Below are positions 1,508 to 50,530 of a DNA stretch of 64,000 bases, one piece after another. Source of the stretch: Rhynchopus sp. YZ270_cl-10 (Eukaryota). The notes beneath the pieces are model-generated. The model made no database searches and was not told where the DNA came from. It saw nothing but the letters and a program-made list of their open reading frames with translations. Location of the stretch: contig OZ037838.1 of NCBI GenBank assembly GCA_964035575.1, forward strand, positions 806,001 through 870,000, written 5' to 3'. Each line of letters opens with the position of its first letter. Within the stretch, counting starts at the first letter, position 1. The position numbers were made by a program, and so were the translations under genes.

Positions 1508-1620
1508 AATTGAGACGCGACTTTTTCTTAACGACCTCCTCCCTCTCTCTCTCTCTCTCTTTAGCCTTTCCCCCTCCACTCCCACCCACCCCTTTTTCCA
1601 GAAACACCCCCTCAAAAACA

Positions 1621-20472: not shown

Positions 20473-21618
20473 ATGATGGATGTGACCTTTGTGCTGGAAG
20501 AGTCAGGCGTGACTGCGACAGTGGAGGTGCCGTGCGAGGCGAAGGTTGCAGCGGCAAAGGAGGTTGCGTGCACGGCGCTTGCTGTCTCGCCTGCGTCTGT
20601 CGAGATGCGCATCGGCACGCAGGTGCTGGAGGGGACGCGCCGTCTGCAGGACACTGCGTTTGATGCAGGGGTGCAGGTTGTGCTTGCCCGCCGCTTTGCC
20701 TACATCAAGTGTCCTGCTGACCATAGCGTGCGTGCAGACAACTTGTCACTGTCGCGTTGTGGAACGCTCTGCGTCTATATACGCGGGAGTGGGCATGTTG
20801 GTGGCTTCGACACAGAAACCTTCGACACTGTCTTCTCGTTTGAAGTGGACACTGATGTGTGCGGTCGGCCTGCCATCTCGCAGTGCAAGACACGCTGCTA
20901 CCTGGAGTGTTGGGATTGCCTTCTTAAGGTTGCGCTTCCGGGTGGGGAGGTGCTCCGCAAAGTCGAGGGCACCTCGCACGCAGTATTCGCGTGTGGTGGT
21001 GTTGTTGTCTCCCAAGGCACAGACGGCGTCTCTGTGTATGACGAAGACCTGACGTTGCTCCGCTCTCTCTCGCATGAGCAGTGCAGGAAGATGGCAGTGT
21101 CGGACTGTGGTGGGTGGGTGATCACCTCCTCCGAAACAGAGTTGAAGGCACGTCTGTGGGATGTGAACACAGGAGAAGCTGTGGCATGTGTGCCTGCGGA
21201 TGACACAGAGTGGTGTGCAGTTGCGCTTTCACGGTCTGCCTCTGTCTTTGCTGAGGCGGGGAACAACACCGTGCACCTCTATGATTGGAGTGGTGCGGCT
21301 CTTCGCAGTGTTGGCGTGGGTGGGGATGTTGAGGACATGCAGTTCACTCCGTGTGGGAAGTACTTTGTGGTCAAGTTGCATGTTCCGGAATGCATATATG
21401 ATGCAGATGATGACGAAAAAATGATGGCTGCTGGCTACAATGTGCAACTCCACCAGTATGATGTGGCGACCATGTCCTGTGTGTGTGTGATCCCGCAAAG
21501 CTCAGATGGGAGATTTGCGATAGCACCATGTTCACGTGTGGTTGTGTTAGGGTGTGACGAAAGCAACACAACAAGCGGCATTGCAACAAAGCATCTGTAC
21601 CCACACAACAGTGAGTGA
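20473..21618 (+). CDS. Ubl-WD40-like propeller family, copy 5
   Basis: Family ATG at 20473 within ORF 20413-21618. Confidence 0.9.
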   Translation: MMDVTFVLEESGVTATVEVPCEAKVAAAKEVACTALAVSPASVEMRIGTQVLEGTRRLQDTAFDAGVQVVLARRFAYIKCPADHSVRADNLSLSRCGTLCVYIRGSGHVGGFDTETFDTVFSFEVDTDVCGRPAISQCKTRCYLECWDCLLKVALPGGEVLRKVEGTSHAVFACGGVVVSQGTDGVSVYDEDLTLLRSLSHEQCRKMAVSDCGGWVITSSETELKARLWDVNTGEAVACVPADDTEWCAVALSRSASVFAEAGNNTVHLYDWSGAALRSVGVGGDVEDMQFTPCGKYFVVKLHVPECIYDADDDEKMMAAGYNVQLHQYDVATMSCVCVIPQSSDGRFAIAPCSRVVVLGCDESNTTSGIATKHLYPHNSE

Positions 21619-24229: not shown

Positions 24230-25351
24230 ATGATGGATGTGATCTTTGTGCTGGAAGAGTCAGGCGTGACTGCGACAGTGGAGGTGCCGTGCGAGGCGGA
24301 CGTTGCAGCGGCAAAGGAGGTTGCGTGCACGGCGCTTGCTGTCTCGCCTGCGTCTGTCGAGATGCGCATCGGCACGCAGGTGCTGAAGGGGACGTGCCGT
24401 CTGCAGGACACTGCGTTTGATTCAGGGGTGCAGGTTGTGCTTGCCTGTCCTCGCTTTGCCGACATCAAGTGTCCTGCTGAGTATAGTGGGTTTGCAGAAT
24501 ACTTATCACTGTCGCGTTGTGGAACGCTCTGCGTCTATAGTAGCAGGGGTGGGGGTGTTGGCAGTTTCGATACAGAAACCTTCAAGACTGCCTTCGCATT
24601 CACAATGGACCTTCGTGTGTACGGTCGGCCTGCCATCTCGCAGTGCAAGACACGCTGCTACCTGGCGTGCAGGAATAATGGCCTTCTCGAGGTTGCGCTT
24701 CCGGGTGGGGAGGTGCTCCGCAAAGTCGACGGCCCTTCGTACGCAGTGTTCCCCAGTGGCAATGTTGTTGTCTCGAAGGGAAACGACGGCGTCTCTGTGT
24801 ATGACGAAGACCTGACGTTGCTCCGCTCTCTCTCGCACAAAGGGTGCTGGGACGTAGCAGTGTCGGACTGTGGTGGGTGGGTGATCACCTCCTCCAACAG
24901 TGAGAAGGAAGCACGTCTGTGGGATGTGAACACAGGTGAAGCTGTGGCATGTGTGCCTGCGGATGAGTGGCGTGCAGTGGCGCTTTCACGGTCTGCCTCA
25001 GTCTTTGCTGGAAACGACTCTTACCACCACGTACACCTCTATGATTGGAGTGGTGCGGCTCTTCGCAGTGTTGATGTGGATGGGGGTGTCGACGTCTTGC
25101 GCATGCAGTTCACCCCGTGTGGGAAGTACCTTGTGTTGGGGATACGGGTTGTGGCACCTGATTGCAGGGCATACTGGTGCCTGCGCCAGTACGATGTGGC
25201 GACCATGTCCTGTGTGCATGTGATCCCGCAAACCTATGGTGGGCCATTTGCGATATCACCGTGTTCACGTGTGGTTGTGTTAGGGTGTGACGAGAGAGGT
25301 ACAACAAGCGGCATTGTAACAAGGCATCTGTACCCACACAACAGTGAGTGA
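24230..25351 (+). CDS. Ubl-WD40-like propeller family, copy 6
   Basis: Family ATG at 24230 within ORF 24146-25351. Confidence 0.9.
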   Translation: MMDVIFVLEESGVTATVEVPCEADVAAAKEVACTALAVSPASVEMRIGTQVLKGTCRLQDTAFDSGVQVVLACPRFADIKCPAEYSGFAEYLSLSRCGTLCVYSSRGGGVGSFDTETFKTAFAFTMDLRVYGRPAISQCKTRCYLACRNNGLLEVALPGGEVLRKVDGPSYAVFPSGNVVVSKGNDGVSVYDEDLTLLRSLSHKGCWDVAVSDCGGWVITSSNSEKEARLWDVNTGEAVACVPADEWRAVALSRSASVFAGNDSYHHVHLYDWSGAALRSVDVDGGVDVLRMQFTPCGKYLVLGIRVVAPDCRAYWCLRQYDVATMSCVHVIPQTYGGPFAISPCSRVVVLGCDERGTTSGIVTRHLYPHNSE

Positions 25352-26236: not shown

Positions 26237-27369
26237 ATGATGGATGTGACCTTTGTGCTGGAAGAGTCAGGCGTGACTGCGACAGTGGAGGTGCCGTGCG
26301 AGGCGAAGGTTGCAGCGGCAAAGGAGGTTGCGTGCACGGCGCTTGCTGTCTCGCCTGCGTCTGTCGAGATGCGCATCGGCACGCAGGTGCTGGAGGGGAC
26401 GTGCCGTCTGCAGGACACTGCGTTTGATGCAGGGGTGCAGGTTGTGCTTGCCTGTCCTCGCTTTGCCGACATCAAGTGTCCTGCTGAGTACAGTCTGCAG
26501 CAGCAAGCAGACAGCTTGTCGCTGTCGCGTTGTGGAACGCTGTGCGTCCATAAGGGGATTAGCAGTGCGCGTGTTGTTGGCTTCGACACAGAAACCTTCG
26601 ACACTGTCTTCTCGTTCGAAGTAGACACTAACGTGAGCACGGCTCCGCCTGCCATCTCGCAGAGCAAGACACGCTGCTACCTGCCGTGTTGGGAGGAAGG
26701 CCTTCTCGAGGTTGCGCTTCCGGGTGGGGAGGTGGTCCGCAAAGTAGACGGCCACTCGGGGTCAGTGTTCGCGTGTGGCAATGTTGTAAGGGCAAAGACG
26801 GTGTCTCTGTGTATGACGAAGACCTGACGTTGCTCCGCTCTCTCTCGCACGAAGGGTGCACGTGTGTGTCGGTGTCGGACTGTGGTGGGTGGGTGATCAC
26901 CTCCTCCTACAAGGAGAACAACGCACGTCTGTGGGATGTGAACACAGGTGAAGCTGTGGCATGTGTGCCTGCGGATGACACGGCCTGGCGAGAGTATGTG
27001 GCGCTTTCACGGTCTGCCTCTGTCTTTGCTGTGGAGGGCTCTGACAACGTGCAGCTCTTTGATTGGAGTGGAGCGGCTCTTGGCAGGATTGATGTGGGTG
27101 GGAGTGTGGAGGTGGCTGTGCAGTTCACCCCGTGTGGGAAGTACCTTGTGGTGGGCGTGGGAGTTGCGGAAGATGAACGTTACGACGATGAGGATGCTGG
27201 CAATCTTAAGCTGCACCAGTATGATGTGGCGACGATGGCCTGTGTACTTGTGATCCCGGACTTCACCGGTCTGTCATTTGCGATATCGCCGTGTTCGAGT
27301 GTGGTCGTGTTTGCGTTGTACGGCAGCACCAACATTGTAACAAGACATCTGTACCCCCACAACGAGTGA
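26237..27369 (+). pseudogene. Ubl-WD40-like propeller family, copy 7 (frameshifted)
   Basis: Split into ORFs 26177-26827 and 26686-27369. 7-nt deletion (TGTCTCG) at ~26787 relative to copy 1. Confidence 0.85.
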
Positions 27370-33174: not shown

Positions 33175-34305
33175 ATGATGGATGTGACCTTTGTGCTGGA
33201 AGAGTCAGGCGTGACTGCGACAGTGGAGGTGCCGTGCGAGGCGAAGGTTGCAGCGGCAAAGGAGGTTGCGTGCACGGCGCTTGCTGTCTCGCCTGCGTCT
33301 GTCGAGATGCGCATCGGCACGCAGGTGCTGGAGGGGACGTGCCGTCTGCAGGACACTGCGTTTGATGCAGGGGTGCAGGTTGTGCTTGCTCGCCGCTTTG
33401 CCGACATCAAGTGTCCTGCTGAGTACACAGCAACTCATGTGGAAAACTTGTCACTGTCGCGTTGTGGAACGCTGTGCCTCGTTAGTGATGATGCAACTGT
33501 TGTTGGTTTCGACACAGAAACTTTTGACACTGTCTTCTCGTTCACGTCGAATGCTTCACTACGCGCTGCACCTGCCATCTCGCAGTGCAAGACACGCTGC
33601 TACCTGCGGTGTTGGCAGGAAGGCCTTCTCGAGGTTGCGCTTCCGGGTGGGGAGGTGCTCCGCAAAGTCGACGACACCTCAGTGTCAGTGTTCGCGTGTG
33701 GCAGTGTTGTTGTCACGGAGGGTATTGACGGCGTCTCTGTGTATGACGAAGACCTGACGTTGCTCCGCTTTCTCTCGCATGAACGGTGTATGAAATTTGC
33801 AATATCGGACTGTGGTGGGTGGGTGATCACCTCCTCCAACAGTGAGAAGAACGCACGTCTGTGGGATGTGAACACAGGAGAAGCTGTGGCATGTGTTCCG
33901 ACGAGAGTGGGGTGTTGCGTGGCGCTTTCACGGCCTGCCTCTGTCTTTGCTGTGTCGGACTCTGGCACTGTGGACGATGGGTATGCGTGGGGGAACAACG
34001 TGCACCTCTACGATTGGAGTGGTGTGGCTCTTCGCAGTGTTGATGTGGAGGGTCGTGTCGAGCGCATGCAGTTCGCCCCGTGTGGGAAGTACCTTGTGTC
34101 CCACGAAGAATATGATGAAGACAATGTAGACCTGCACCAGTTCGATGTGGCAACCATGTTCTGTGTGCATGTGATACCGCTAACCTATGGTGGGCCATTT
34201 GCCATATCACCGTGTTCACGTGTCGTTGTGTTACGGTATGAGGACGAAAGCGGTACAACAAGCGGCATTGTAACAAGGCATCTGTACCCACACAACAGTG
34301 AGTGA
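33175..34305 (+). CDS. Ubl-WD40-like propeller family, copy 8
   Basis: 376-aa ORF with the family architecture. Confidence 0.9.
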   Translation: MMDVTFVLEESGVTATVEVPCEAKVAAAKEVACTALAVSPASVEMRIGTQVLEGTCRLQDTAFDAGVQVVLARRFADIKCPAEYTATHVENLSLSRCGTLCLVSDDATVVGFDTETFDTVFSFTSNASLRAAPAISQCKTRCYLRCWQEGLLEVALPGGEVLRKVDDTSVSVFACGSVVVTEGIDGVSVYDEDLTLLRFLSHERCMKFAISDCGGWVITSSNSEKNARLWDVNTGEAVACVPTRVGCCVALSRPASVFAVSDSGTVDDGYAWGNNVHLYDWSGVALRSVDVEGRVERMQFAPCGKYLVSHEEYDEDNVDLHQFDVATMFCVHVIPLTYGGPFAISPCSRVVVLRYEDESGTTSGIVTRHLYPHNSE

Positions 34306-34805: not shown

Positions 34806-35897
34806 ATGATGGATGTGACCTTTGTGCTGGAAGAGTCAGGTGTGACTGCGACAGTGGAGGTGCCGTGCGAGGCGGACGTTGCAGCGGCAAAGGAGGTTGC
34901 GTGCACGGCGCTTGCTGTCTCGCCTGCGTCTGTCGAGATGCGCATCGGCACGCAGGTGCTGGAGGGGACGTGCCGTCTGCAGGACACTGCGTTTGATGCA
35001 GGGGTGCAGGTTGTGCTTGCCCGCCGCTTTGCCGACATCCAGTGTCCTGCTGAGTACACTGCCCGTGTAGAAGGATTGTCGCTGTCGCGTTGTGGCACGC
35101 TCTGTGTCTATGTTTGTGATAGGAATGTAGCTGGCTTCGACACAGAAACCTTCGACACTGTCTTCTCGTTCGAAATGTGGACTAAAGTGTACGGTCGGCC
35201 TGCCATCTCGCAGTGCAAGACACGCTGCTACCTGGCGTGTTGGAGTAAAGGCCTTCTCGAGGTTGCGCTTCCGGGTGGGGAGGTGGTCCGCAAAGTCGAC
35301 GACACCTCCAAAGCAGTGTTCGCCTGTGGCGGTGTTGTTGTCTCAAAGAGCACAGACGGCGTCTCTGTGTATGACGAAGACCTGACGTTGCTCCGCTCTC
35401 TCTCGCACGAAAGGTGTTGGGACATGTCAGTGTCTGACTGTGGTGGGTGGGTGATCACCTCCTCCATGAGGGAGAGCAACGTACGTCTGTGGGATGTGAA
35501 CACAGGTGAAGCTGTGGCATGTGTGCCTGCTGATGGGTGGTGTTGCGTGGCGCTTTCACGATCTGCTTCTGTGTTTGCTGTGAGCTGTTTTGGCAACGTG
35601 CAGATCTATGATTGGAGTGGTGCGGCTCTTCGCAGCGTTGGTATGGGTGGGGATGTCAAGTGCATGCAGTTCACCCCGTGTGGGAAGTACTTTGTAGTCT
35701 GGGTAGATGACGATGACACAGAGGACGATTACAGTACACCCCTGCACCAGTATGATGTGGCGACCATGTCCCGTGTGCGTGTGATGTTGCAATGTTCAGG
35801 TGCATTTGCGATATCGCCGTGTTCACGTGTTGTTGTGCTATTGGAAGAAGGTACCGTCATTGTGACGAGACATCTGTACCCACACAACAGTGAGTGA
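34806..35897 (+). CDS. Ubl-WD40-like propeller family, copy 9
   Basis: Family ATG at 34806 within ORF 34746-35897. Confidence 0.9.
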   Translation: MMDVTFVLEESGVTATVEVPCEADVAAAKEVACTALAVSPASVEMRIGTQVLEGTCRLQDTAFDAGVQVVLARRFADIQCPAEYTARVEGLSLSRCGTLCVYVCDRNVAGFDTETFDTVFSFEMWTKVYGRPAISQCKTRCYLACWSKGLLEVALPGGEVVRKVDDTSKAVFACGGVVVSKSTDGVSVYDEDLTLLRSLSHERCWDMSVSDCGGWVITSSMRESNVRLWDVNTGEAVACVPADGWCCVALSRSASVFAVSCFGNVQIYDWSGAALRSVGMGGDVKCMQFTPCGKYFVVWVDDDDTEDDYSTPLHQYDVATMSRVRVMLQCSGAFAISPCSRVVVLLEEGTVIVTRHLYPHNSE

Positions 35898-38001: not shown

Positions 38002-39135
38002 ATGATGGATGTGACCTTTGTGCTGGAAGAGTCAGGCGTGACTGCGACAGTGGAGGTGCCGTGCGAGGCGGACGTTGCAGCGGCAAAGGAGGTTGCGTGC
38101 ACGGCGCTTGCTGTCTCGCCTGCGTCTGTCGAGATGCGCATCGGCACGCAGGTGCTGGAGGGGACGTGCCGTCTGCAGGACACTGCGTTTGATGCAGGGG
38201 TGCAGATCGTGCTTGCGTGCCCTCGCTTTGCCGACATCAAGTGTCCTGCTGAGTACGATGTACAGGACATTTTAAAGATGACCGCGAGGTCGTTGAGGCT
38301 GTCGCGTTGTGGAAAGCTCTGCGTCTATAGTAATGGAAGTAGTCATGTTGGCGGCTTCGACACAGAAACCTTCGACACTGTCTTCTCATTTGAAGTGGAC
38401 AATGATGTGTGCGGTCGGCCTGCCATCTCTCGGTGCAAGACACGCTGCTACCTGGCGTGTTTGGACCACGTTCTCGAGGTTGCGCTTCCGGGTGGGGAGG
38501 TGCTCCGCAAAGTCGAGGGCTACTCGTACTCAGTGTTTGCGTGTGGTGGTGTTGTTGTCTCGAAGGGCAGAGACGGGTTCTCTGTGTATGACGAAGACCT
38601 GACGTTGCTCCGCTCTCTCTCGCACGAAGAGTGTTATAACGTGATGGTGTCGGACTGTGGTGGGTGGGTGATCACCTCCTCCACGAGGGAGAAGAACGCA
38701 CGTCTGTGGGATGTGAACACAGGAGAAGCTGTGGCATGTGTGCCTGCGGGTAGGTGGGGTAGAGTGGCGCTTTCACGGTCTGGCTCTGTCTTTGCTGTGG
38801 TGGGGGAGACAAGCAACGTGCACCTCTATGATTGGAGTGGTGCGGCTCTTCGCAGTGTTGATGTGGGTGGGGAAGTTGGGAGCATGCAGTTCACCCTGTG
38901 TGGGAAGTACCTTGTGGTGGGGATACATGTTCCGAAATCTGATACCGAATGCACAGATGCTGAATATTACAATACACCCCTGCACCAGTATGATGTGGCG
39001 ACCATGTCCTGTGTGCGTGTGATACCGCAAAGCTCAGGTGCATTTGCGATATCGCCGTGTTCACGTGTTGTTGTGGTATTGGAATATGATGGAGACATTG
39101 TAACAAAGCATCTGTACCCACACAACAGTGAGTGA
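38002..39135 (+). CDS. Ubl-WD40-like propeller family, copy 10
   Basis: Family ATG at 38002 within ORF 37942-39135. Confidence 0.9.
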   Translation: MMDVTFVLEESGVTATVEVPCEADVAAAKEVACTALAVSPASVEMRIGTQVLEGTCRLQDTAFDAGVQIVLACPRFADIKCPAEYDVQDILKMTARSLRLSRCGKLCVYSNGSSHVGGFDTETFDTVFSFEVDNDVCGRPAISRCKTRCYLACLDHVLEVALPGGEVLRKVEGYSYSVFACGGVVVSKGRDGFSVYDEDLTLLRSLSHEECYNVMVSDCGGWVITSSTREKNARLWDVNTGEAVACVPAGRWGRVALSRSGSVFAVVGETSNVHLYDWSGAALRSVDVGGEVGSMQFTLCGKYLVVGIHVPKSDTECTDAEYYNTPLHQYDVATMSCVRVIPQSSGAFAISPCSRVVVVLEYDGDIVTKHLYPHNSE

Positions 39136-39746
39136 TGTGTGACCAGGGGAGGGGAGGGAGGGTGGTAATAAATATACCCCAGGGTACCAGCAAAACAACC
39201 CAAGACCTTCAAAACCCATTGTTGAGACATCTGTACCCACACAACAGTGAGCGATGTTTTTCTTTGTAAAGACCCCTTTGCTTTGCGACGTTGCCCTGTG
39301 GTGCGGCCTCATGGGGAGGGAATGAGTGTCGCGTTTGCTTCTTGTTGGGTGGGCATTTGAATGTTTCGGCTTCCCCCACTCCCACCCCGCCACCCCTGAT
39401 CGTTTCATCGACCTGAACGCTTCCCTCACACCCACTTTTTGACTGTTGTTTTGCCTCTGGGCTTTTCCCTTTACACATTCCCACAGCTTACACTACATGC
39501 TATGTGGACATATCCTGAATGTTCCGATATTATTCGAAATTATCTCTCCAAAAAAAGAGCACATCACCATGCTACGACCTTAGGGGCTGTCCACACCTGC
39601 TTTTCAAGCACACACACACACACACCGCCCACTTTATGTATTTTCCTCCCCAAAACTTTTCCTCCCAGAATTTCTACACAAAAAAACTGCTTGGTTTCCA
39701 CCAATCTGTCGTTTTTTTTCTCTTTTCTTTTCATCTATACCCCACA

Positions 39747-41045
39747 ATGTCAAACCCCGGAACACCACGTTCAGTGAGGACACCACCTCGAACACCTCTG
39801 AGTGGTGCCTCTGCCGCAATGCGTGTTACAGAGTTGGTGGAGGCAGGGGCGACGGCGAAAGACGCGGAGCGTGTTCTGATGGGGCAGACGGCGCTTGCGG
39901 AGATATGCTTGACACGCGAAGAGGTGGAGGCTGTGGCTGCAGAAGCGTGGCTGGAAGTGGGGAGCGCAGTGACGTGCAGTACGCTGGCTGCGCGCGGACG
40001 AGAGAGGATGGGATTCCACATTGTGGATGTGCGTGAGACGGGTCGTGTACCCGAGGTGCCACTTCGCAGAGAGTATGAGCAGCACCACGACCACGGAGCG
40101 GTGCGTCGTGCCCTCCGCCTAGCACCACGTGAACAGCATACGCGCTTTGAGCATACGCTCCGCATGCTGCACACCCCGCAGCGTGCCCAGCGCTGGCGTG
40201 CGCACCACCGCCACACCCCATCTGCCACCCTCCGCAAGCCGCCCAAGACCCTCTTCTACGTCTCGCTTGCGAACATCCCCCTCACAGCAGCGCGCACCTT
40301 GCTCCTCGCAGAGGGGGTGGCGGCGTGCCCCTTTCTGGGCTTCCTGTCGCTGGCAGGGTGCGGCATTGGGGAAGGGGAGGGGTTCGCGCCACTGTGCGAC
40401 GTGCTTGCGCAGCATAAAAGCATCGCAAGGCTGGATGTGTCTGGGAACAGATTGCGTGCTTCTGGTGCGGAGACGGTGTCGCGTGTGGTGCGTGCCGTGG
40501 CGCTGACGCATCTGGATGTTAGTCTGAATGGAATTGGCGATGTGGGTGTGGGTGCGCTGTGCACAGCTGTGCTAGGGTGTGCAGGGTCGGTGTTGTGTTC
40601 GTTGAACCTATCTTGCAATGCGATTGGTGCGAAGGGGGGGTGGCATTTGTCACGCCTAGTGCGCGACCACGCACCGCTACGCACGCTGCTCTGCTGGAGG
40701 AACAACCTTGCCGTCCGTCCACGCCGTCTGGCGCACTCAGGGGCGCGCTATCTCTTTGAGACCGTGCCCGGTTCAGCCCTGCAGGAGCTCAACCTCGCAC
40801 ACAACAGCATCACGCAGGAGGACGTCTCGCTTCTTCTCGACGCCTTCCGTGCGCACCGTACGCAGCACGGCCACAGCAGCACCGGTCGCTGCCACGTAGT
40901 CCTAAGCGGCGGGAACAGCCTCCCACAAACACAGCTTGCGGAGCTCGCACAGTACTGCACACCGATCGCCCCAGCAGCAGATACAGCGCTTATCAGCAGA
41001 CTGCACGCTGCAGGGACGTTCTGGTGTGAAGAGGAGTGTGGGTAA
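39747..41045 (+). CDS. Ribonuclease-inhibitor-type leucine-rich repeat protein
   Basis: ~28-aa repeats: LSLAGCGIG, LDVSGNRLRASGA, LDVSLNGIGDVGV, LNLSCNAIGAKG, LQELNLAHNSI. Confidence 0.85.
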   Translation: MSNPGTPRSVRTPPRTPLSGASAAMRVTELVEAGATAKDAERVLMGQTALAEICLTREEVEAVAAEAWLEVGSAVTCSTLAARGRERMGFHIVDVRETGRVPEVPLRREYEQHHDHGAVRRALRLAPREQHTRFEHTLRMLHTPQRAQRWRAHHRHTPSATLRKPPKTLFYVSLANIPLTAARTLLLAEGVAACPFLGFLSLAGCGIGEGEGFAPLCDVLAQHKSIARLDVSGNRLRASGAETVSRVVRAVALTHLDVSLNGIGDVGVGALCTAVLGCAGSVLCSLNLSCNAIGAKGGWHLSRLVRDHAPLRTLLCWRNNLAVRPRRLAHSGARYLFETVPGSALQELNLAHNSITQEDVSLLLDAFRAHRTQHGHSSTGRCHVVLSGGNSLPQTQLAELAQYCTPIAPAADTALISRLHAAGTFWCEEECG

Positions 41046-41629
41046 TGGGTAGGGAAGTGCAAAAAGAGGAGCGAGGGAGGGGGAGGGCATTTAGTGGTGT
41101 GTGGAGTCTGGTAGCATGCGGCCGTTCCCATCGGTGTGTGCTGTTTCGCTGAAGCACGGCAAGTGCATTGTGTACTGTGTCGGTATGATGGAGTGACTAT
41201 GTCCTGTGTGTGCTGACGGATGCAGCCGGCTGCTCATTGGCGATATCATATTCACATATGGTGTTTGTGTGTCCCAATGGTAGCGTTGTCACGTTCGTCT
41301 GTTGCACACAAGGAAGAAGAAAAATTCCAGATGCCATTGACGTTTGTTTCTCAAGAGTTTGTGTGTTGTTTTGCTCTTGTGGGTTGCTGTTTAACGGAAA
41401 CACAAATCAGCCGACAAGCGGTTATGTGGGGATCTCCCCCGTTCGCACTACAGTATGGGCCAGCCACGAGGTTTCTTTTCACGTCGCCTGTGTGTTTGCA
41501 GGGTATCTTCACATCGCTTGTTTTGTCAGAGTTTGTTGAAACACGTATTTAACCCACCAACCTTCTTATTTGTCGTTGCGAAGTGACACCACCAACCATC
41601 ACATCAAACACAACAGAGCCCTTAACAAT

Positions 41630-42760
41630 ATGATGGATGTGACCTTTGTGCTGGAAGAGTCAGGCGTGACTGCGACAGTGGAGGTGCCGTGCGAGGCGGA
41701 CGTTGCAGCGGCAAAGGAGGTTGCGTGCACGGCGCTTGCTGTCTCGCCTGCGTCTGTCGAGATGCGCATCGGCACGCAGGTGCTGGAGGGGACGTGCCGT
41801 CTGCAGGACACTGCGTTTGGTGCAAGGGTGCAGGTTGTGCTTGCCCGCCCTCGCTTTGCCGACATCAAGTGTCCTGCTGAGTATAGTGGGTTTGCAGAAT
41901 ACTTATCACTGTCGCGTTGTGGAACGCTCTGCGTTTTTTCGGACTTGACTGGGGAGTTAGGTGGCTTCGACACAGAAACATTCGACACCGTCTTCTCGTT
42001 TGTAATATATAATGGTGTGTGCGGTCCGCCTGCCATCTCGCAGTGCAAGACACGCTGCTACCTGGCGTGTTGGGATTGCCTTGTCGAGGTTGCGCTTCCG
42101 GGTGGGGAGGTGCTCCGCAAAGTCGACGGCTACTCGTACGCAGTGTTCGCGTGTGGCAGTGTTGTTATCTCCCAGGGCACAGGCGGCGTCTCTGTGTATG
42201 ACGAAGACCTGACGTTGCTCCGCTCTCTCTCGCACGAAGGCTGCACCTGTGTGTCGGTGTCGGACTGTGGTGGGTGGGTGATCACCTCCTCCTACAGTGA
42301 GCATAACGCACGTCTGTGGGATGTGAACACAGGTGAAGCTGTGGCATGTGTGCCCGTGTCAGGGGTCAATGTGGCGCTTTCACGGTCTGTCTCGGTCTTT
42401 GCTGTGGCAGGGAACAACACCGTGCACCTCTATGATTGGAGTGGTGCGGCTCTTCGCAGTTTTGATGTGGGTGGGGATATTGAGAGCATGCAGTTCACCC
42501 CGTGTGGGAAGTACCTTGTGGTAATGATGCGTGTTGCGGACTGCATACATGATACAGATGATGAAGAATATGATGGTTACAATGTACACCTGCACCAGTT
42601 CGATGTGGCAACCATGTCCTGTGTGCATGTGATACCGCTAACCTATGGGAAATTTGCGATATCACCATGTTCACGTGTCGTTGTGTTACGGTATGAGGAC
42701 GAAAGCGGTACAACAAGCGGCATTATAACAAGGCATCTGTACCCACACAACAGTGAGTGA
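41630..42760 (+). CDS. Ubl-WD40-like propeller family, copy 11
   Basis: Family ATG at 41630 within ORF 41570-42760. Confidence 0.9.
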   Translation: MMDVTFVLEESGVTATVEVPCEADVAAAKEVACTALAVSPASVEMRIGTQVLEGTCRLQDTAFGARVQVVLARPRFADIKCPAEYSGFAEYLSLSRCGTLCVFSDLTGELGGFDTETFDTVFSFVIYNGVCGPPAISQCKTRCYLACWDCLVEVALPGGEVLRKVDGYSYAVFACGSVVISQGTGGVSVYDEDLTLLRSLSHEGCTCVSVSDCGGWVITSSYSEHNARLWDVNTGEAVACVPVSGVNVALSRSVSVFAVAGNNTVHLYDWSGAALRSFDVGGDIESMQFTPCGKYLVVMMRVADCIHDTDDEEYDGYNVHLHQFDVATMSCVHVIPLTYGKFAISPCSRVVVLRYEDESGTTSGIITRHLYPHNSE

Positions 42761-43268
42761 TGTTTCGCGAGGGGTGGGAGGGTGGTGACTGTATTCTGAC
42801 AGAAGGGGACAGTGCAAGTGTCTGCAGAGGGTATACCATCAACTGCTTAGGCCACACCGTCAATCTAGCTCAAGCGGACGGCTTTTCACACATAACACAC
42901 AAAGACTTCGTTGTTGTGATTCTTTTCATATTGGTATCGTTTCTTGTTGACTCTTTATTTGTGAAGATGTGCGTGCACGAGAGTCATATTCATGTTTCAG
43001 GTTTTATTTGCTTACTTTTCCATGAGGTTACAATCCGTTTAACGGAAACACAAACGGTGACAATCGGTTGTATATCTTCCCCGTTCACACAGTACGGGCG
43101 AGCAATGAGGTTTATTTTCACATCTCCTGTGTGTTTGCAGGGTATCTTCAAATTGCTTGCTTTGTCAGAGTTTGTTGAAACACGTATTTAACCCACCAAC
43201 CTTCTTATTTGTCGTTGCGAAGTGACACCACCAACCATCACATCAAACACAACAGAGCCCTTAACAAT

Positions 43269-44372
43269 ATGATGGATGTGACCTTTGTGCTGGAAGAGTC
43301 AGGCGTGACTGCGACAGTGGAGGTGCCGTGCGAGGCGGACGTTGCAGCGGCAAAGGAGGTTGCGTGCACGGCGCTTGCTGTCTCGCCTGCGTCTGTCGAG
43401 ATGCGCATCGGCACGCAGGTGCTGGAGGGGACGTGCCGTCTGCAGGACACTGCGTTTGATGCAGGGGTGCAGGTTGTGCTTGCCCGCCGCTTTGCTGACA
43501 TCAAGTGTCCTGCTGAGTACAGTATCCAGGGCATTGTTCAAAGTTTCTCACTGTCGCGTTGTGGCACGCTCTGCCTCATCGTGACTGAAGATGTGGGTAT
43601 TGCTGGCGTCGGATTCGATACAGTAACCTTCAACACCGCCTTCTCGTTTAAACCTGTTTGCCTCACAGCACCGCCCATCTCACGGTGCAAGACACGCTGC
43701 TACCTCGCGTCTGGGGGTGATGTACGCATGGTTGCGCTTCCGGGTGGGGAGGTACTTCGCAAAGTTACAGGACGCTCGACAACAGTGTTCGCGTGTGGTG
43801 GTGTTATTCTCTCCCAAGGCACAGACGGCGTCTCTGTGTATGACGAAGACCTGACGTTGCTCCGCTCTCTCTCACACAAGGGGTGCAGTAGGGTGGCAGC
43901 GTCGGACTGTGGTGGGTGGGTGATCAGCTACTCCTGGGTGGAGAAGAAGGCACGTCTGTGGGATGTGAACACAGGTGAAGCTGTGGCATGTGTGGAAAGC
44001 ATGCCTCCCACGGCGTGGGAGGTAAGGCTAGCGCTCTCGCGGCCTGCCTCTGTCTTTGCTGTGGGTTGCTCTCAAGAAGTGCAGCTCTATGACTGGAGTG
44101 GTGTGGCTCTTGGCAGCATTAAAAAGGAGGATTACCATGTCTATGGCGTGCAGTTCACTCCCTGTGGGAAGTATGTCGTCGTTAATTTTACGTGTGCATC
44201 AAGGCGTGAGGACCCTGCACTCCTGCACCAGTACGATATGTCTACCATGTCCTGTGTGCGTGTTATACCAAAATGCTGCGGTGAGTTTGCGATATCACCG
44301 TGTTCGCGTGTGGTTATGTTTGAGTCAGCAGAAAGTGCCTTCCTTGTGACAAGGCATCTGTACCCCTACTGA
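43269..44372 (+). CDS. Ubl-WD40-like propeller family, copy 12 (divergent propeller, ends HLYPY)
   Basis: Family ATG at 43269 within ORF 43209-44372. Confidence 0.9.
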   Translation: MMDVTFVLEESGVTATVEVPCEADVAAAKEVACTALAVSPASVEMRIGTQVLEGTCRLQDTAFDAGVQVVLARRFADIKCPAEYSIQGIVQSFSLSRCGTLCLIVTEDVGIAGVGFDTVTFNTAFSFKPVCLTAPPISRCKTRCYLASGGDVRMVALPGGEVLRKVTGRSTTVFACGGVILSQGTDGVSVYDEDLTLLRSLSHKGCSRVAASDCGGWVISYSWVEKKARLWDVNTGEAVACVESMPPTAWEVRLALSRPASVFAVGCSQEVQLYDWSGVALGSIKKEDYHVYGVQFTPCGKYVVVNFTCASRREDPALLHQYDMSTMSCVRVIPKCCGEFAISPCSRVVMFESAESAFLVTRHLYPY

Positions 44373-44624
44373 GTACTGCGGTGTGTTGCTATCGTGCGTT
44401 GCATCAGTATTTGCGTTGCACCCTCGACCTACTAGCTTGTGAGGAAATATATTGAGACATTTTGTGGATAACGACCACACCACCCTTTACCTCTTTTTCA
44501 CTTGTGCCTTGTTAAAACACTCTTCTGTTGGTGCGAACCACCGACACAATAAAAATATCGCAAACACAAACAACCCACACCTCATCTCCTCCCAACAGAG
44601 GTGGAACAAGAAGAAGACAAAACA

Positions 44625-46696
44625 ATGGATGTGACCTTTGTGCTGGAAGAGTCAGGCGTGACTGCGACAGTGGAGGTGCCGTGCGAGGCGGACGTTGCAG
44701 CGGCAAAGGAGGTTGCGTGCACGGCGCTTGCTGTCTCGCCTGCGTCTGTCGAGATGCGCATCGTCACGCAGGTGCTGGAGGGGACGTGCCGTCTGCAGGA
44801 CACTGCGTTTTGTGCAGGGGTGCAGATCGTGCTTGCCCGCCCTCGCTTTGCCGACATCAAGTGTCCTGCTGAGTACACTGCACAGATGTGATGATCTTAT
44901 CGCTGTCGCATTGTGGAACACTCTGCATCTATTATGACTGGAGTGGGCATGTTGGCGGCTTCGACACAGAAACCTTTGACACTGTCTTCTCGTTCGAAGT
45001 GGACAATGAGGTGCACGGTGCGCCTGCCATCTCGCAGTGCAAGACACGCTGCTACCTGGCGTGTTGGAGTAAAGGCCTTCTCGAGGTTGCGCTTCCGGGT
45101 GGGGAGGTGCTCCGCAAAGTCGATGGCACTCCGCACGCAGTGTTCGCGTGTGGCGGTGTTATTCTCTCCCAAGGCACAGACGGCGTCTCTGTGTATGACG
45201 ATGACCTGACGTTGCTCCGCTCTCTCTCGCACAAGCAGTGCAGGAAGATGGCAGTGTCGGACTGTGGTGGGTGGGTGATCACCTCCTCCGAAGGGAAAGA
45301 GGCACGTCTGTGGGATGTGAACACAGGTGAAGTTGTGGCATGTGTGCCTGCGGAGGGGTGGTGCGCAGTAGTGGCACTTTGCAGACTATTGTGCAGCGAA
45401 GCTTTCACGGTCTGCTTCTGTCTTTGCTGTGGTCTTTGCTGAGGCGGGGAACAACAACGTGCACCTCTATGATTGGAGTGGTGCGGCTCTTCGCAGTGTT
45501 GATGTGGGTGGGATTGTCGAGAGCATGCAGTTCACCCCATGTGGGAAGTACTTTGTAGCCAAGCTGCATGTTCCGGAATGCATATGGGTCGATGCGTAAA
45601 ACCCCCCCTCCCCGGGTTTTGGGGCTGTAAGTGAAATTAAGGCAAAATATTACACCAACAATACATTTTTTTATTGCACAACGGGGCACTTTTATTTCAC
45701 AACCCGGGGGTCTGCTAAACGCTTAGTTCTCAAGGCTTACGTTCATCGTATCAACTTCCCTTTGGTGTTGGGGTTATCTTCATTCAAATTTTTCTCTTTT
45801 CGAAATATCTTTATCTCCTGTATCACAACCTTGCAGAGTTGCTGATGTCCGACCTAAACACCATTGAGGCAGATGGAGTGGCCACTCCACAGGCAGCACT
45901 GTTCCCGTAGGTGGGCACACCCCACCCCCACCAGCCGCATCCGCATCCATCTAAGGTGAAACACGTGAAAAAATCCCTCAGATGGTCAAAATACCCAAAT
46001 TTTGCGTTTTTTTGCATTTTTCGGTACCCCAAGACCCCACCCAGGAGTCGAAATTTTCCGGGGAAAAAATTTTTTTTTTCCCCGATTTTTCGGATTTTTG
46101 CTAAGGCGCTGGCCCATACAAACCGGTTTTTTGTACAGAAAATGACCGGGGAATAAATATGTGATGCTCAAAACATCAAAATTCTTGCTTTATTTGCATT
46201 TTTGGGTCCATCTGAGCCCAAAAAAAAATTTTTTTTTCGGCTGAAAATTTTGTCTTTGCGAAAAAAAAAAAAAAAATCGAGCAGTGAAATAAAGAGTGAA
46301 ATAAAGAGTGAAATAAAGAAATAAAGCCTTTTTTATTTCACTGCCGTTTTTATTTTTCTACAGGAATTTGTTAGGGGAGTGAAATTAAAGTGCCCCGACG
46401 TGCAATAAAAAAAAATCAAAAATCGTAGTGAAATTTAGGGGAGGGGGGGTTTTACGCATTCACCCATATATGATACAGATGATGACGAAGAAATGATTGC
46501 TAGTGGCTACAATGTGCAACTCCACCAGTATGATGTGGCGACCATGTCTTGTGTGCGTGTGATCCCGCAAAGCTCAGATGGGACATTTACGATATCACCA
46601 TGTTCGCGTGTGATTGTGTTAGTAGGGGATGAGGACGAAAGCGGTACAACAAGCGGCATTGTAACAAGGCATCTGTACCCACACAACAGTGAGTGA
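44625..46696 (+). pseudogene. Ubl-WD40-like propeller family, copy 13 (disrupted)
   Basis: Frameshift/stop at ~44885, small insertion at ~45376-45400, and an 880-bp TIR element at 45586-46465. Coding sequence resumes at 46466 and runs to HLYPHNSE. Confidence 0.88.
45586..46465. mobile_element. Non-autonomous TIR element with GGG termini and 4-bp TSD ATAT
   Basis: GGGTCGATGCGTAAAACCCCCCCTCCC ... GGGAGGGGGGGTTTTACGCATTCACCC. Empty site GAATGCATATATGATGC is present in copy 5 (~21388-21404). Confidence 0.88.
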
Positions 46697-47519
46697 TGTT
46701 TCGCGAGGGGTGGGAGGGTGGTGACTGTATTCTGACAGAAGGGGACAGTGCAAGTGTCTGCAGAGGGTATACCATCAACTGCATAGGCCACACCGTCAAT
46801 CTAGCTCAAGCGGACCGCTTTTCACACATAACACACAAAGACTTCGTTGTGTATTTTTTTTCATATTGGTATCGTTTCTTGTTGACTCTTTATTTGTGAA
46901 GATGTGCGTGCACGAGAGTCATATTCATGTTTCAGGTTTTATTTGCTTACTTTTCCATGAGGATCCAATCCGTTAAACGGAAACACAACCAGCGGTTGTG
47001 TGGTTTATGATCGTACTCTTAACGTTCAAAAGAAATCAAACAAAATCAAAAGGGGAGAAAATGTGGGAGGAATCTGTTTTCAATTGGCACTGTTAGTGCG
47101 GAAGGTACGTGCGGGGAGGGACGAGAGTGGGGAACGGGAAAAGGCGAAACTGTTTTTTTCCCTGCTGAATATGGTGATTGTTTGTTTCTCCCCAGCCCCA
47201 GTTCCTACCCTGCCAAAGCAGGAGGTAAAAAGAAATAGCATCCCTCCTTTTTTGTTTAGAGTATACTCTCAAACCCCACACAACGCACTTTCAGTGCCTT
47301 ACGGTGCTGCTAAATGTGGTGACCTTCCCCGTTCACACCACAGTGAAGGCAAGTCGTGAGGTTTCTTTTCACATCTCGTGTGTGTTTGCAGGGTATCTTC
47401 AAGTTGCTTGTTTGTTCAGAGTTTGTTGAAACACGTATTCAACCCACCAACCTTCTTATTTGTCGTTGCGAAGTGACACCACCAACCATCACATCAAACA
47501 CAACAGACCCCTTAACAAT

Positions 47520-48655
47520 ATGATGGATGTGACCTTTGTGCTGGAAGAGTCAGGCGTGACTGCGACAGTGGAGGTGCCGTGCGAGGCGGACGTTGCAGCG
47601 GCAAAGGAGGTTGCGTGCACGGCGCTTGCTGTCTCGCCTGCGTCTGTCGAGATGCGCATCGGCACGCAGGTGCTGGAGGGGACGTGCCGTCTGCAGGACA
47701 CTGCGTTTCGTGCAGGGGTGCAGGTTGTGCTTGCCCGCCGCTTTGCCAACATCAAGTGTCCTGCTGAGTATAGTGAGCAGAATACTTGTCGCTGTCGCGT
47801 TGTGGAACGCTCTGTGTTTTTTCGGACTTGACTGGGGAGTTAGGTGGCTTCGACACAGAAACCTTCGACACTGTCTTCTCGTTTTTATTGGATAATGATG
47901 CGTGCGGTCCGCCTGCCATCTCGCAGTGCAAGACACGCTGCTACCTGCCGTGTTGGAAAGACTTACGCAAGGTTGCGCTTCCGGGTGGGGAGGTGGTCCG
48001 CAAAGTCGAGGGCACCTCAGACTCAGTGTTCGCGTGTGGCGGTGTTGTTGTCTCGAAGGGCAAAGACGGCGTCTCTGTGTATGACAAAGACCTGACGTTG
48101 CTCCGCTCTCTCTCGCACGAAGGGTGCTGGGGTATGGCAGTGTCGGACTGTGGTGGGTGGGTGATCACCTCCTCCTCCATTGAGAACACGCGTCTGTGGG
48201 ATGTGAACACAGGAGAAGCTGTGGCATGTGTGCCTGCGGATGCCACAGACTGGTGTTGCGTGGCGCTTTCACGGTCTGCCTCTGTCTTTGCTGTGGAGGG
48301 CTCTGGCAACGTGCACCTCTTTGATTGGAGTGGTGCGGCTCTTCGCAGTGTTGATGTGGGTGGGGATGTCACGGGCATGCAGTTCACCCCATGTGGGAAG
48401 TACCTTGTGGTCAAGGTGATTGTTGCGGAAGACATATCTGATACATATGATGAAGAATCTGAAGAATATGATGGTTACAATGCACATCTCCACCAGTATG
48501 ATGTGGCAACCATGTCCCGTGTGCATGTGATCCCGCAAACCTGTGGTGGGACATTTGCGATATCACCATGTTCACGTGTGGTTGTGTTAGGGTGTGACGA
48601 AAGTACAACAAGCGGCATCGTAACAAGGCATCTGTACCCACACAACAGTGAGTGA
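47520..48655 (+). pseudogene. Ubl-WD40-like propeller family, copy 14 (frameshifted)
   Basis: Split into ORFs 47460-47831 and 47786-48655. Net 4-nt deletion at ~47775 relative to copies 6 and 11. Confidence 0.85.
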
Positions 48656-49441
48656 TGTTTCGCGAGGGGTGTGAGGGTGGTGACTTTTTTCTGACACACG
48701 AGTCATATTCATGTTTCAGGTTTTATTTGCTTACTTTTCCATGAGGATCCAATCCGTTAAACTGAAACACAAACCGGCCGACAAGCGGTTGTGTACCTTC
48801 CCCGTTCACAGTACGGGCAAGCCGCGAGGTTTCTTTTCACATCTCCTGTGTATTTGCAGGGTATCGTCATTGTTTGTATCGTTTTTTGTTGACTCTTTTT
48901 TTGTGAAAGATGTGTTGGACGATCTATGAACCGTGAGAGATGTTTTTACTAGCTCTCAGTAGCGTCTCACAGGTTCTCACTAACTCTCCCTAAGTTATGA
49001 GGTGTCTTTTTTTACTTTGTCGTGTGCCTGTAAGCTCTTGTGTCTCCACAGATGTCCACATTTATTTTTTTTTTGGAGAGTAAAAATTTATTTGGAGACA
49101 TGCCTTTGCCAAAACACATCTCTTTTTGTTGTAAAATAGACAATGTATATTATGTGGTGGTCAAAAATGCAAAGCTCCTTCGCCAATGGATTTATTGGGT
49201 GTGTGTTATACCGGGACAAGTGGTCAGATCACTTAGGTGTTTTCAACCTTCCCCCTTCACCACAGTACGGGCAAGCCGCGAGGTTTCTTTTCACATCTCC
49301 TGTGTATTTGCAGGGTATCTTCAAATTGCTCGCTTGTTCAGAGTTTTTTGAAACACGTAATTAACCCACCAACCTTCTTATTTGTCATTGCGAAGTGACA
49401 CCACCAACCATCACATCAAACACAACAGACCCCTTAACAAT

Positions 49442-50530
49442 ATGATGGATGTGACCTTTGTGCTGGAAGAGTCAGGCGTGACTGCGACAGTGGAGGTGCC
49501 GTGCGAGGCGGACGTTGCAGCGGCAAAGGAGGTTGCGTGCACGGCGCTTGCTGTCTCGCCTGTGTCTGTCGAGATGCGCATCGGCACGCAGGTGCTGGAG
49601 GGGACGTGCCGTCTGCAGGACACTGCGTTTGATTCAGGAGTGCAGGTTGTGCTTGCCCGCCCTCGCTTGGCCGACATCAAGTGTCCTGCTGAGTACGATG
49701 TACAGGACATTTTAAAGATGACCGCGAGGTCGTTGAGGCTGTCGCGTTGTGGAAAGCTCTGCGTCTATAGTAATGGAAGTAGTCATGTTGGCGGCTTCGA
49801 CACAGAAACCTTCTACACTGTTTTCTCGTTTTTATTGGATACTGGTGTGTGCGGTCCGCCTGCCATCTCGCAGTGCAAGACACGCTGCTACCTGCCGTGT
49901 TGGAAAGACTTACACAAGGTTGCGCTTCCTGGTGGGGAGGTGCTCCGCAAAGTCGACGGCCCCTCGTACGCAGTGTTCGCGTGTGGCAGTGTTGTTGTCT
50001 CACGAGGCGATGAAGGCGTCTCTGTGTATGACGAAGACCTGACGTTGCTCCGCATTCTCTCGCATGAGCAGTGCAGGAATGTGGCAGTATCGGACTGTGG
50101 TGGGTGGGTGATCACCTCCTCCAACAAGGAGAAGAACGCACGTCTGTGGGATGTGAACACAGATGTTGATGTGGCATGTGTGCCTGTTGAGGGGTGGTGT
50201 TGCATGGAGCTTTCACGATCTGCCTCTGTCTTTGCTGTGGTGGGCTCTGGCAACGTGCACCTCTATGATTGGAGTGGTGTGGCTCTTCGCTCTCTGGGCA
50301 GGGATGGGGATGTCGAGTGCATGCAGTTCACCCCGTGTGGGAAGTACCTTGTGGTAAAGGGAACCCACGTGCTCCACCAGTATGATGTGGCAACCATGTC
50401 CTGTGTGCGTTGGGTCCCGCAAGCCTATGATACGTCATTTGTGATATCGCCGTGTTCACGTGTTCTTGTGGCTACGCAACCAAATGGCGCCATTGCGACA
50501 AAGCATCTGTACCCACACAACAGTGAGTGA
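49442..50530 (+). CDS. Ubl-WD40-like propeller family, copy 15
   Basis: Family ATG at 49442 within ORF 49382-50530. Confidence 0.9.
   Translation: MMDVTFVLEESGVTATVEVPCEADVAAAKEVACTALAVSPVSVEMRIGTQVLEGTCRLQDTAFDSGVQVVLARPRLADIKCPAEYDVQDILKMTARSLRLSRCGKLCVYSNGSSHVGGFDTETFYTVFSFLLDTGVCGPPAISQCKTRCYLPCWKDLHKVALPGGEVLRKVDGPSYAVFACGSVVVSRGDEGVSVYDEDLTLLRILSHEQCRNVAVSDCGGWVITSSNKEKNARLWDVNTDVDVACVPVEGWCCMELSRSASVFAVVGSGNVHLYDWSGVALRSLGRDGDVECMQFTPCGKYLVVKGTHVLHQYDVATMSCVRWVPQAYDTSFVISPCSRVLVATQPNGAIATKHLYPHNSE

What the first reader, a model, noticed from the sequence alone, without database searches (positions are those of the whole stretch)
38231..49930. Variable loops are shuffled as cassettes between paralogs (mosaic genes)
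Seen: copy 15 (49671-49813) is identical to copy 10 (38231-38373; YDVQDILKMTARSLRL..SNGSSHV), then matches copy 14 (FLLD..PCWKDL), and ends like copy 3 (short last loop, FVISP..Q.NG). Copy 11 shares YSGFAEYL with copy 6, FSDLTGELG with copy 14, HEGCTCVSV with copies 4 and 7, and LTYG..RYEDESGTTSG with copy 8. VYVCDRNV is shared by copies 3 and 9, WEEGLL by 4 and 7, WSKGLL by 9 and 13, QCRKMA and KLHVPECI by 5 and 13. Inference: segmental gene conversion or crossover within the conserved blocks generates combinatorial binding surfaces.
Basis: partly seen in the sequence, partly recalled or inferred. Interest (0 to 1): 0.85.

Follow-up and report, generated by a model that had tools for sequence, protein, structure and literature searches.

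The report
Patchwork ubiquitin-propeller gene repertoire, protist
A single-celled eukaryote, likely a diplonemid, carries a large tandem family of genes for a near-constant ubiquitin-like domain plus a predicted seven-bladed propeller; the copies are patchworks of one another, likely through gene conversion, and vary almost only on the propeller face predicted to bind partners, so they likely form a diversifying recognition repertoire.

Summary
The mosaics are real. Fifteen intronless paralogs (12612-50530) encode a ubiquitin-like domain plus a seven-bladed WD40 propeller. All 15 quoted motifs were found, 11 DNA-identical; copies 10 and 15 share 144 identical bases. One tree cannot explain them: PHI p=1e-4, and the excess compatibility of nearby sites (-0.23) lies far outside 200 no-recombination simulations (sd 0.025). 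One public run holds the shared tract at about twice single-copy depth, which argues against an assembly chimera, though no read phases a whole mosaic.

The 'cassette' idea is too tidy. Across 120 family proteins nearly every loop is unique (101-119 variants in 13 of 14 loops), linkage fades within 5-10 codons, and about half the tract ends lie inside loops. Patchwork conversion on top of fast loop divergence fits better.

All 55 hypervariable positions lie in the d-a and b-c loops (the propeller's binding face), as do 38 of 39 sites inferred as positively selected; the ubiquitin-like part is homogenised (dS 0.024). The host is likely a diplonemid. It most likely works like fungal HNWD receptors or nematode F-box adaptors, with an architecture not found in ten literature searches. 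Expression and ligands are unknown.

The parts
12612..13754 (+). copy 1, intact UBL-WD40 gene (380 aa)
14867..16000 (+). copy 2, intact
17437..18501 (+). copy 3, intact (short bc6 loop shared with copy 15)
19167..20300 (+). copy 4, intact
20473..21618 (+). copy 5, intact
24230..25351 (+). copy 6, intact
26237..27369 (+). copy 7, frameshifted near 26788
33175..34305 (+). copy 8, intact
34806..35897 (+). copy 9, intact
38002..39135 (+). copy 10, intact (377 aa; modelled)
38002..38217 (+). ubiquitin-like domain of copy 10 (aa 1-72), near-invariant across the family
38239..39132 (+). seven-bladed WD40 beta-propeller of copy 10 (aa about 80-377) with 14 variable d-a and b-c loops
38230..38373 (+). 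144-bp tract identical to copy 15 (loops da1 and bc1)
38824..38896 (+). 73-bp tract identical to copy 4 (19992-20064)
41630..42760 (+). copy 11, intact; painted from 6 other copies
41849..41934 (+). 86-bp tract identical to copy 6 (24449-24534)
41933..41979 (+). 47-bp tract identical to copy 14 (47816-47862)
42668..42724 (+). 57-bp tract identical to copy 8 (34213-34269)
43269..44372 (+). copy 12, intact, most divergent (77-79% to the rest)
44622..46696 (+). copy 13, pseudogene: frameshifts near 44887 and 45386 plus a TIR insertion; shares tracts with copies 4, 5, 8, 9, 12
45022..45109 (+). 88-bp tract identical to copy 9 (35198-35285)
45586..46465 (.). 880-bp MITE-like insertion in copy 13 (28-bp terminal inverted repeats, ATAT on both sides)
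47520..48655 (+). copy 14, frameshifted near 47776
49442..50530 (+). copy 15, intact mosaic
49670..49813 (+). copy-10-identical tract in copy 15
49849..49913 (+). 65-bp copy-14-identical tract in copy 15 (47902-47966)

Best explanation
The array is a patchwork of paralogous genes, likely kept so by short in-register gene conversion and unequal crossover, that encode a near-constant ubiquitin-like domain and a predicted seven-bladed propeller whose binding-face loops are hypervariable and likely under diversifying selection, probably as a cytosolic recognition repertoire. Shown: the mosaic pattern, the rejection of a single tree, the alternation of constant frame and variable loops, and the ubiquitin-like and WD40 homologies. 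Inferred: (1) the near-identical 5' part and the conserved strands between loops provide the homology for exchange between matching positions of different copies; (2) tracts of roughly 10-150 bp move part of a loop, one loop, or rarely two; (3) new loop variants arise by substitution and in-frame indels and are favoured, while the frame, bottom face and UBL are held and homogenised; (4) each protein would bind a different partner through its top face and pass it to one shared downstream factor through the constant parts. Least certain: the partners are foreign or fast-changing proteins, such as endosymbiont or virus proteins.
For: Recombination: PHI p=1e-4 on 266 informative sites; near-minus-far incompatibility -0.227 versus 0.001 +/- 0.025 in 200 single-tree simulations with site-specific rates (lowest -0.064), 100 clustered-rate simulations (lowest -0.096) and 100 column shuffles; longest identical run 68 polymorphic sites versus at most 64. 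Whole-gene tree has 10% internal length. Codon identity inside five shared loop cores is unlikely under protein-level convergence (P 3e-7 to 2e-3). 5' and 3' flank types are reassorted across copies. Depth: the copy-10/15 loop contig has depth 238.7 in run X3, where apparently single-copy contigs have 93-121; in X1 937 against 559-600 for copy-15 contigs. Fold: seven-bladed propeller, Z 28.7, rmsd 2.6 A over 276 residues to G-beta. Variation: 120 family proteins, mean entropy 1.95 bits in d-a/b-c halves versus 0.36 in a-b/c-d halves (p 2e-33); 55 of 55 positions above 2.5 bits and 767 inserted residues on top versus 1 on the bottom. The same two loops form the interaction platform and carry the selected sites in HET-E (PMC1805685, passages). 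Selection: site-class test 2dL 73 versus 0.3-6.1 in 12 null simulations; 38 of 39 sites with posterior above 0.9 on the top face, in all 14 loops; codon-model omega 1.29 top, 0.40 bottom. UBL: a profile of nine N-terminal domains hits ubiquitin (E 4e-6) and ubiquitin-like proteins (E 1e-8). No hydrophobic segment (19-residue hydropathy max 1.53). Family size: the 120 listed of 415 hits are all 69% identical or more, 85 of them on a contig as long as the window's own.
Against: Averaged omega on the top face is only about 1 (pairwise 1.06, CI 0.87-1.28; conservative count 0.81, CI 0.71-0.92, and 0.95 at hypervariable sites), so relaxed constraint is not excluded. The site test assumes a star tree and is open to multi-base changes and loop misalignment. 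Synonymous divergence is itself raised on the top face (four-fold sites 0.217 top, 0.144 bottom, 0.025 UBL), which selection on protein does not explain by itself. The recombination signal is weak outside the loops (p 0.04 on 58 sites) and absent on the 16 synonymous-only sites (p 0.98, 10 near pairs). No contig phases the copy-10-like loop with the copy-14-like loop. The UBL has E, R and A at the places of ubiquitin L8, I44 and V70 and no diglycine (alignment; the role of that patch is recalled), so simple proteasome docking is doubtful. Top and bottom were assigned from predicted strands and WD topology, not from coordinates. Three of 15 copies are broken. No ligand or expression data.
Confidence: 0.62

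Rival explanations
1. Whole-loop cassette shuffling: crossovers or conversions resolve only in conserved blocks, so intact loops from a limited pool are recombined combinatorially.
For: The clearest tracts carry whole loops and end in frame sequence (c10/c15, c6/c11, c11/c14 bc1, c4/c10); 28 of 58 tract ends span frame; exact loop sharing is nearly always one loop at a time (361 single, 8 double, 1 triple).
Against: 101-119 distinct variants per loop among 120 proteins in 13 of 14 loops; half-loop matches exceed whole-loop matches in 7 of 7 loops tested; 30 of 58 ends inside loops; linkage decays within 5-10 residues. In-loop ends could partly be later mutations, so this is weakened, not excluded.
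Confidence: 0.15
2. Neutral or relaxed concerted evolution: conversion homogenises whatever is still similar, diverged surface loops escape it and drift, and the family has one ordinary function or none.
For: Top-face omega about 1 by counting methods; dS rises with dN from UBL to bottom to top; three broken copies.
Against: Bottom-face loops are equally exposed yet conserved (0.36 bits, omega 0.36-0.40, 1 inserted residue); 12 of 15 copies stay open despite many loop indels; site-class test favours omega above 1 at 38 top-face sites.
Confidence: 0.13
3. A targeted diversifier (loop-directed hypermutation or programmed conversion) acts on this family and makes variants within clonal lineages.
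For: Synonymous change is raised in the same loops, including at conserved top-face codons (1.11 versus 0.65 changes per site); almost every loop allele is unique.
Against: No adenine bias (consensus A changed 17%, G 15%, C 12%, T 10%); no reverse transcriptase, recombinase or deaminase hit among the non-family ORFs scanned; old alleles kept by selection and unlinked by conversion give the same dS pattern.
Confidence: 0.06
4. Assembly or polishing chimera between similar paralogs.
For: Large, similar family; short-read contigs cannot phase a 144-bp shared tract.
Against: Tract at about twice single-copy depth in X3 and about 1.6 times in X1; the right end of the copy-14 tract (49913) is bridged by an exact 70-base contig in X1 and X2; dozens of short tracts across 14 of 15 copies; the same rapid linkage decay in 120 proteins from several contigs.
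Confidence: 0.04

Closest known systems
Podospora HNWD/NWD non-self receptors (het-d, het-e; PMC1805685, passages read)
   Same: WD40 propeller; exchange between loci by conversion or unequal crossover; selected sites in the d-a loop and b-c turn on the propeller top; homogenised frame.
   Different: No NACHT or HET domain; blades here are diverged from one another (no internal DNA repeat), so exchange is between matching positions of paralogs, not between repeat units; at least 120 close proteins rather than 10 genes; long indel-rich loops; N-terminal UBL.
Caenorhabditis unstable F-box genes (PMC8665587, passages read)
   Same: Tandem lineage-specific expansion; conserved N-terminal domain, C-terminal binding domain with dN/dS peaks; proposed recognition of foreign proteins.
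   Different: No F-box; a UBL takes its place; that paper's main text has no mention of gene conversion; no cullin link shown here.
Sea urchin SpTransformer (PMC8634487, passages read)
   Same: Clustered genes whose coding sequence is a mosaic of shared blocks, giving star-like trees.
   Different: Unrelated protein; a folded propeller here; no fixed small set of elements.
NLE1/Rsa4 and WDR12/Ytm1 (UBL plus WD40; recalled, an NLE cluster appeared at a lead-level score)
   Same: Domain order: ubiquitin-like domain then WD40 propeller.
   Different: Those are conserved single-copy ribosome assembly factors (recalled); no Pfam NLE hit here.
Segmental-conversion antigenic variation (trypanosome VSG mosaics, Borrelia vlsE, Anaplasma msp2; recalled)
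   Same: Short in-register tracts between paralogs, variable blocks between constant blocks, broken copies that still share tracts.
   Different: No signal or membrane segment; most copies are intact, with no sign of one expression site and silent donors; free-living-type host.

Membership tests
WD40 seven-bladed beta-propeller | Seven four-stranded blades; structural match to WD40 proteins | tested here: met
   Model pLDDT mostly 80-97 over aa 100-360; Z 28.7, rmsd 2.6, 276 aligned to G-beta; Foldseek E 1e-15
Ubiquitin-like (beta-grasp) domain | Sequence homology to ubiquitin over about 70 residues | tested here: met
   Profile of nine N-termini hits ubiquitin E 4e-6 and UBLs E 1e-8; distant relatives hit PF00240 at E 7e-5 to 0.04, below the curated cut-off, and link to the family N-terminus at E 1e-14 to 2e-5. 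Copy 10 alone gives no hit and its model is low-confidence there
Proteasome-shuttle UBL (Rad23/Dsk2 type) | Hydrophobic L8/I44/V70-type patch (recalled) and UBA domain | tested here: not met
   E, R, A at those places by the alignment; no UBA hit
Conjugatable ubiquitin-family modifier | C-terminal diglycine after the UBL | tested here: not met
   Sequence runs VLA(C/R)PRF into the propeller
Fungal HNWD/NWD NLR | NACHT domain with or without HET domain | tested here: not met
   354-381 aa proteins, UBL plus propeller only
Fungal HNWD/NWD NLR | Highly similar WD repeats within a gene, exchanged as units | tested here: not met
   No off-diagonal DNA match longer than 21 bases, E 1.9 or worse
Fungal HNWD/NWD NLR | Diversifying sites in d-a loop and b-c turn, with exchange between loci | tested here: met
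F-box / cullin substrate adaptors | F-box, BTB or BC-box domain | tested here: not met
   No such Pfam hit
F-box / cullin substrate adaptors | Binds a ubiquitin ligase and delivers substrates | not testable with these tools
NLE1/Rsa4, WDR12/Ytm1 | NLE (PF08154) domain that docks on midasin | tested here: inconclusive
   No PF08154 hit; only a 0.84 atlas lead
Antigenic variation by segmental conversion | Surface protein with signal or anchor | tested here: not met
   Hydropathy maximum 1.28-1.53 in 12 intact copies; no dedicated signal predictor was available
Antigenic variation by segmental conversion | One expressed locus and silent donors | not testable with these tools
   No RNA holder listed
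Diversity-generating retroelement | Adenine-specific change from a template repeat, with reverse transcriptase | tested here: not met
   No A bias; no RT hit among scanned ORFs

The most novel reading that the evidence does not exclude
A free-living-type euglenozoan has evolved an antibody-like intracellular repertoire: hundreds of UBL-propeller genes with 14 CDR-like loops that are actively re-diversified by targeted conversion or mutation within clonal lineages, and that recognise endosymbiont or viral proteins and route them to a common effector through the invariant UBL.
Probability: 0.12. Interest if true: 0.93.

Novelty: new variant of a known kind. Interest (0 to 1): 0.72.

Why it matters
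How protists recognise intracellular bacteria and viruses is largely open. Diplonemids carry Holosporaceae and Rickettsiaceae endosymbionts with secretion systems (10.1101/719211, abstract). A family with every mark of a recognition repertoire (constant handle, one hypervariable face, patchwork exchange, many copies) gives a concrete, testable candidate. It shows the HET-E pattern reached independently on a non-repetitive propeller by exchange between paralogs. It is also a natural library showing which 14 loops of a WD40 scaffold tolerate change.

Tried and rejected

AU tests: each of six segments rejected the whole-gene tree (p 3e-5 to 0.016), but each segment's own best tree was among the candidates, so this is biased and I rely on the simulations.

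The indel census was mis-framed by the DNA alignment and is discarded. The painting null (72 segments versus 17-22) keeps gap columns unshuffled. Some 6-12 bp tracts among the 29 may be alignment fragments of larger tracts.

Tract sharing does not fall with distance inside the array (rho -0.001, p 0.48), although exact loops are shared more among window copies (6 in 45 pairs) than with other family members (11 in 1100 pairs; Fisher 3e-5, pairs not independent).

Reads: no RNA holder listed, no evidence either way. At 100% likeness X2 and X4 have no cover at 49708-49772 and X1-X3 none at 49825-49850; holes prove nothing, though a strain difference there is worth checking. The 81-base X4 contig (49792-49872) does not reach a copy-10-specific base.

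Copy 10's N-terminus alone found nothing in PDB, Pfam or the atlas. The divergent UBL-WD40 gene at 5099 found only itself. No phage match. The 29 representatives looked up are all unnamed ENA proteins, so the family's range across diplonemids is unknown. Earlier findings of this scan: none.

Literature: ten full-text searches listed no description of this family. The D. papillatum genome paper has 0 main-text occurrences of WD40, WD repeat, propeller, ubiquitin or gene conversion (PMC10161547, term search; supplements not read and could bear on this). A diplonemid genome note listed shows 0 occurrences of WD40 (listing only). No complex prediction was run, as no candidate partner was at hand.
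Full report
WHAT IS THERE. The window is eukaryotic. Its zeta-COP gene (27815-28354) has Diplonema papillatum as best named hit at 55% identity, with closer unnamed protist hits, so the host is likely a diplonemid; the species was not determined. Between 12612 and 50530 lie 15 intronless paralogs on the + strand, 77-90% identical in DNA. Twelve are open; copies 7 and 14 are frameshifted, and copy 13 has frameshifts and an 880-bp TIR insertion. A protein search gave 415 hits; the 120 listed are all 69% identical or more, and 85 lie on a contig as long as the window's own, 27 on one other. The array is therefore a small part of a large family. More distant full-length relatives exist, all unnamed.

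THE PROTEIN. Residues 80-377 model as a seven-bladed propeller that matches WD40 proteins (Z 28.7, rmsd 2.6 A). The first 72 residues are ubiquitin-like. Copy 10 alone does not show this, but distant relatives link to it, hit Pfam ubiquitin below the cut-off, and a joint profile finds ubiquitin at E 4e-6. It lacks the diglycine and has E, R, A where ubiquitin has L8, I44, V70. There is no hydrophobic segment, so the proteins are likely cytosolic or nuclear.

THE OBSERVATION. All 15 quoted motifs are present, 11 identical in DNA. Copies 10 and 15 share 144 identical bases. Copy 15 is 100% like copy 10 there, 94% like copy 14 next, and only loosely like copy 3 at the end (82.8% against 68-78%).

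IS IT RECOMBINATION? PHI gives p 1e-4 and incompatibility rises with distance from 0.54 to 0.79. Near-minus-far incompatibility is -0.227; 200 single-tree simulations with the fitted site rates give 0.001 +/- 0.025, and clustered rates or column shuffles do no better. Tracts with four or more shared rare substitutions number 22 against 0.4 in column shuffles. Convergence at protein level would not give identical codons (P 3e-7 to 2e-3 for five cores). Upstream and downstream flank types are reassorted, which points to crossovers as well. Against: the signal is weak outside the loops (p 0.04) and absent on 16 synonymous-only sites, a test with 10 near pairs. Segment AU tests agree but are biased.

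IS IT AN ASSEMBLY CHIMERA? Four public runs from two studies cover the array; some may be the source data. An exact 95-base contig over the copy-10/15 loops has depth 238.7 in X3, where apparently single-copy contigs have 93-121; X1 gives 937 against 559-600. So the tract likely exists twice. An exact 70-base contig bridges the right end of the copy-14 tract in X1 and X2. No contig phases the two tracts, and X2 and X4 have a hole over the tract that cannot be read either way.

CASSETTES? Only partly. The best tracts carry whole loops, but among 120 proteins 13 of 14 loops have 101-119 distinct sequences, exact sharing is nearly always one loop at a time, and half-loop matches outnumber whole-loop matches. 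Of 58 tract ends, 30 lie inside a loop. Linkage falls from r2 0.091 (up to 2 residues) to 0.053 (3-5), 0.029 (6-10) and about 0.02 beyond 20, against 0.016 unlinked. Blades are not similar to each other in DNA, so exchange is between matching positions of paralogs. Loop sharing is richer among window neighbours than with the rest of the family but does not depend on distance within the array.

WHERE THE VARIATION SITS. With strands from the model and the WD dipeptide marking strand c, the d-a and b-c halves average 1.95 bits and the a-b and c-d halves 0.36. All 55 positions above 2.5 bits and 767 inserted residues are in the former, 1 in the latter. These two loops form the top interaction platform and hold the selected sites of HET-E (PMC1805685, passages). 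Omega is 0.36-0.40 on the bottom and 0.8-1.3 on the top, by method. A site-class test with free synonymous rates favours omega above 1 (2dL 73, null 0.3-6.1 in 12 simulations) at 39 sites, 38 of them on top and spread over all 14 loops (star tree). Synonymous divergence climbs from 0.025 in the UBL to 0.144 on the bottom and 0.217 on top. This is what homogenisation of similar parts plus retention of old loop variants would give, but a raised local mutation rate is not excluded.

MECHANISM. Shown: mosaic, non-tree history, one variable face, constant UBL. Inferred: near-identical 5' and frame sequence allows short conversions and occasional unequal crossovers; loops gain variants by substitution and in-frame indels; selection keeps them; exchange makes new combinations, often within a loop. 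Broken copies 13 and 14 share tracts with five copies each and could act as reservoirs. Each protein would bind its own partner on the top face and signal or deliver it through the constant parts. Defence against endosymbiont or viral proteins is the likeliest context (diplonemid endosymbionts with type VI secretion: 10.1101/719211, abstract) but is untested. My odds: exchange between paralogs about 0.93, diversifying selection about 0.75, defence role about 0.5.

COMPARISON AND NOVELTY. It works like Podospora HNWD receptors, nematode F-box adaptors (PMC8665587, passages) and SpTransformer mosaics (PMC8634487, passages), and fails the defining domain tests for each. NLE1/WDR12 share the domain order (recalled). 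It is not a DGR. Conversion in tandem families is common, so the process is not new; the UBL-propeller repertoire, its size and its host group appear undescribed in ten searches and in the main text of the D. papillatum genome paper (supplements not read). Verdict: real, new variant of a known kind, interest 0.72.

Noticed in passing
window 45586-46465: 880-bp element with 28-bp terminal inverted repeats, inner 35-40-bp inverted repeats and ATAT on both sides, inserted in loop bc6 of copy 13 inside a region shared with copy 5; parts of it have contig depth about 20 times single-copy in X2 and X3. Likely a MITE.
   Followed up: partly
window 50855-52250: Second inverted-repeat element with a perfect 32-bp terminal inverted repeat, 10-bp subterminal repeats and a nested inverted array at 51535-52021.
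   Followed up: no
window 39519-41045 (+): Leucine-rich-repeat gene (LRR_6, E 2e-14) sitting inside the array between copies 10 and 11.
   Followed up: partly
window 5099-6280 (+): Divergent gene with a ubiquitin/RA-like N-terminus and WD40 propeller, weakly similar to the family (profile probability 54%); no relatives found.
   Followed up: partly
window 61318-62075: 152 near-perfect copies of TGTAC.
   Followed up: no
window 1438-1515 (+): 78-bp fragment matching the 5' end of eukaryotic LSU rRNA (E 8.5e-12), lying between two copies of a roughly 31-bp direct repeat.
   Followed up: no
window, about 140 bases upstream of copies 7, 9, 10, 11, 12, 14, 15: Shared pyrimidine-rich stretch ending in CAG, a likely splice acceptor; copy 5 has this upstream block cut short and fused to copy 4's downstream sequence (172-bp spacer).
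   Followed up: no
window 27815-28354 and 31490-32104: Housekeeping genes zeta-COP and AMMECR1 interrupt the array between copies 7 and 8.
   Followed up: partly
window 52744-54564 (+): 606-aa ORF with several hydrophobic stretches and no Pfam hit.
   Followed up: no
window 49708-49772: Exact cover of the copy-10/15 loop in runs X1 and X3 but not X2 and X4; could be filtering or a difference between samples.
   Followed up: no
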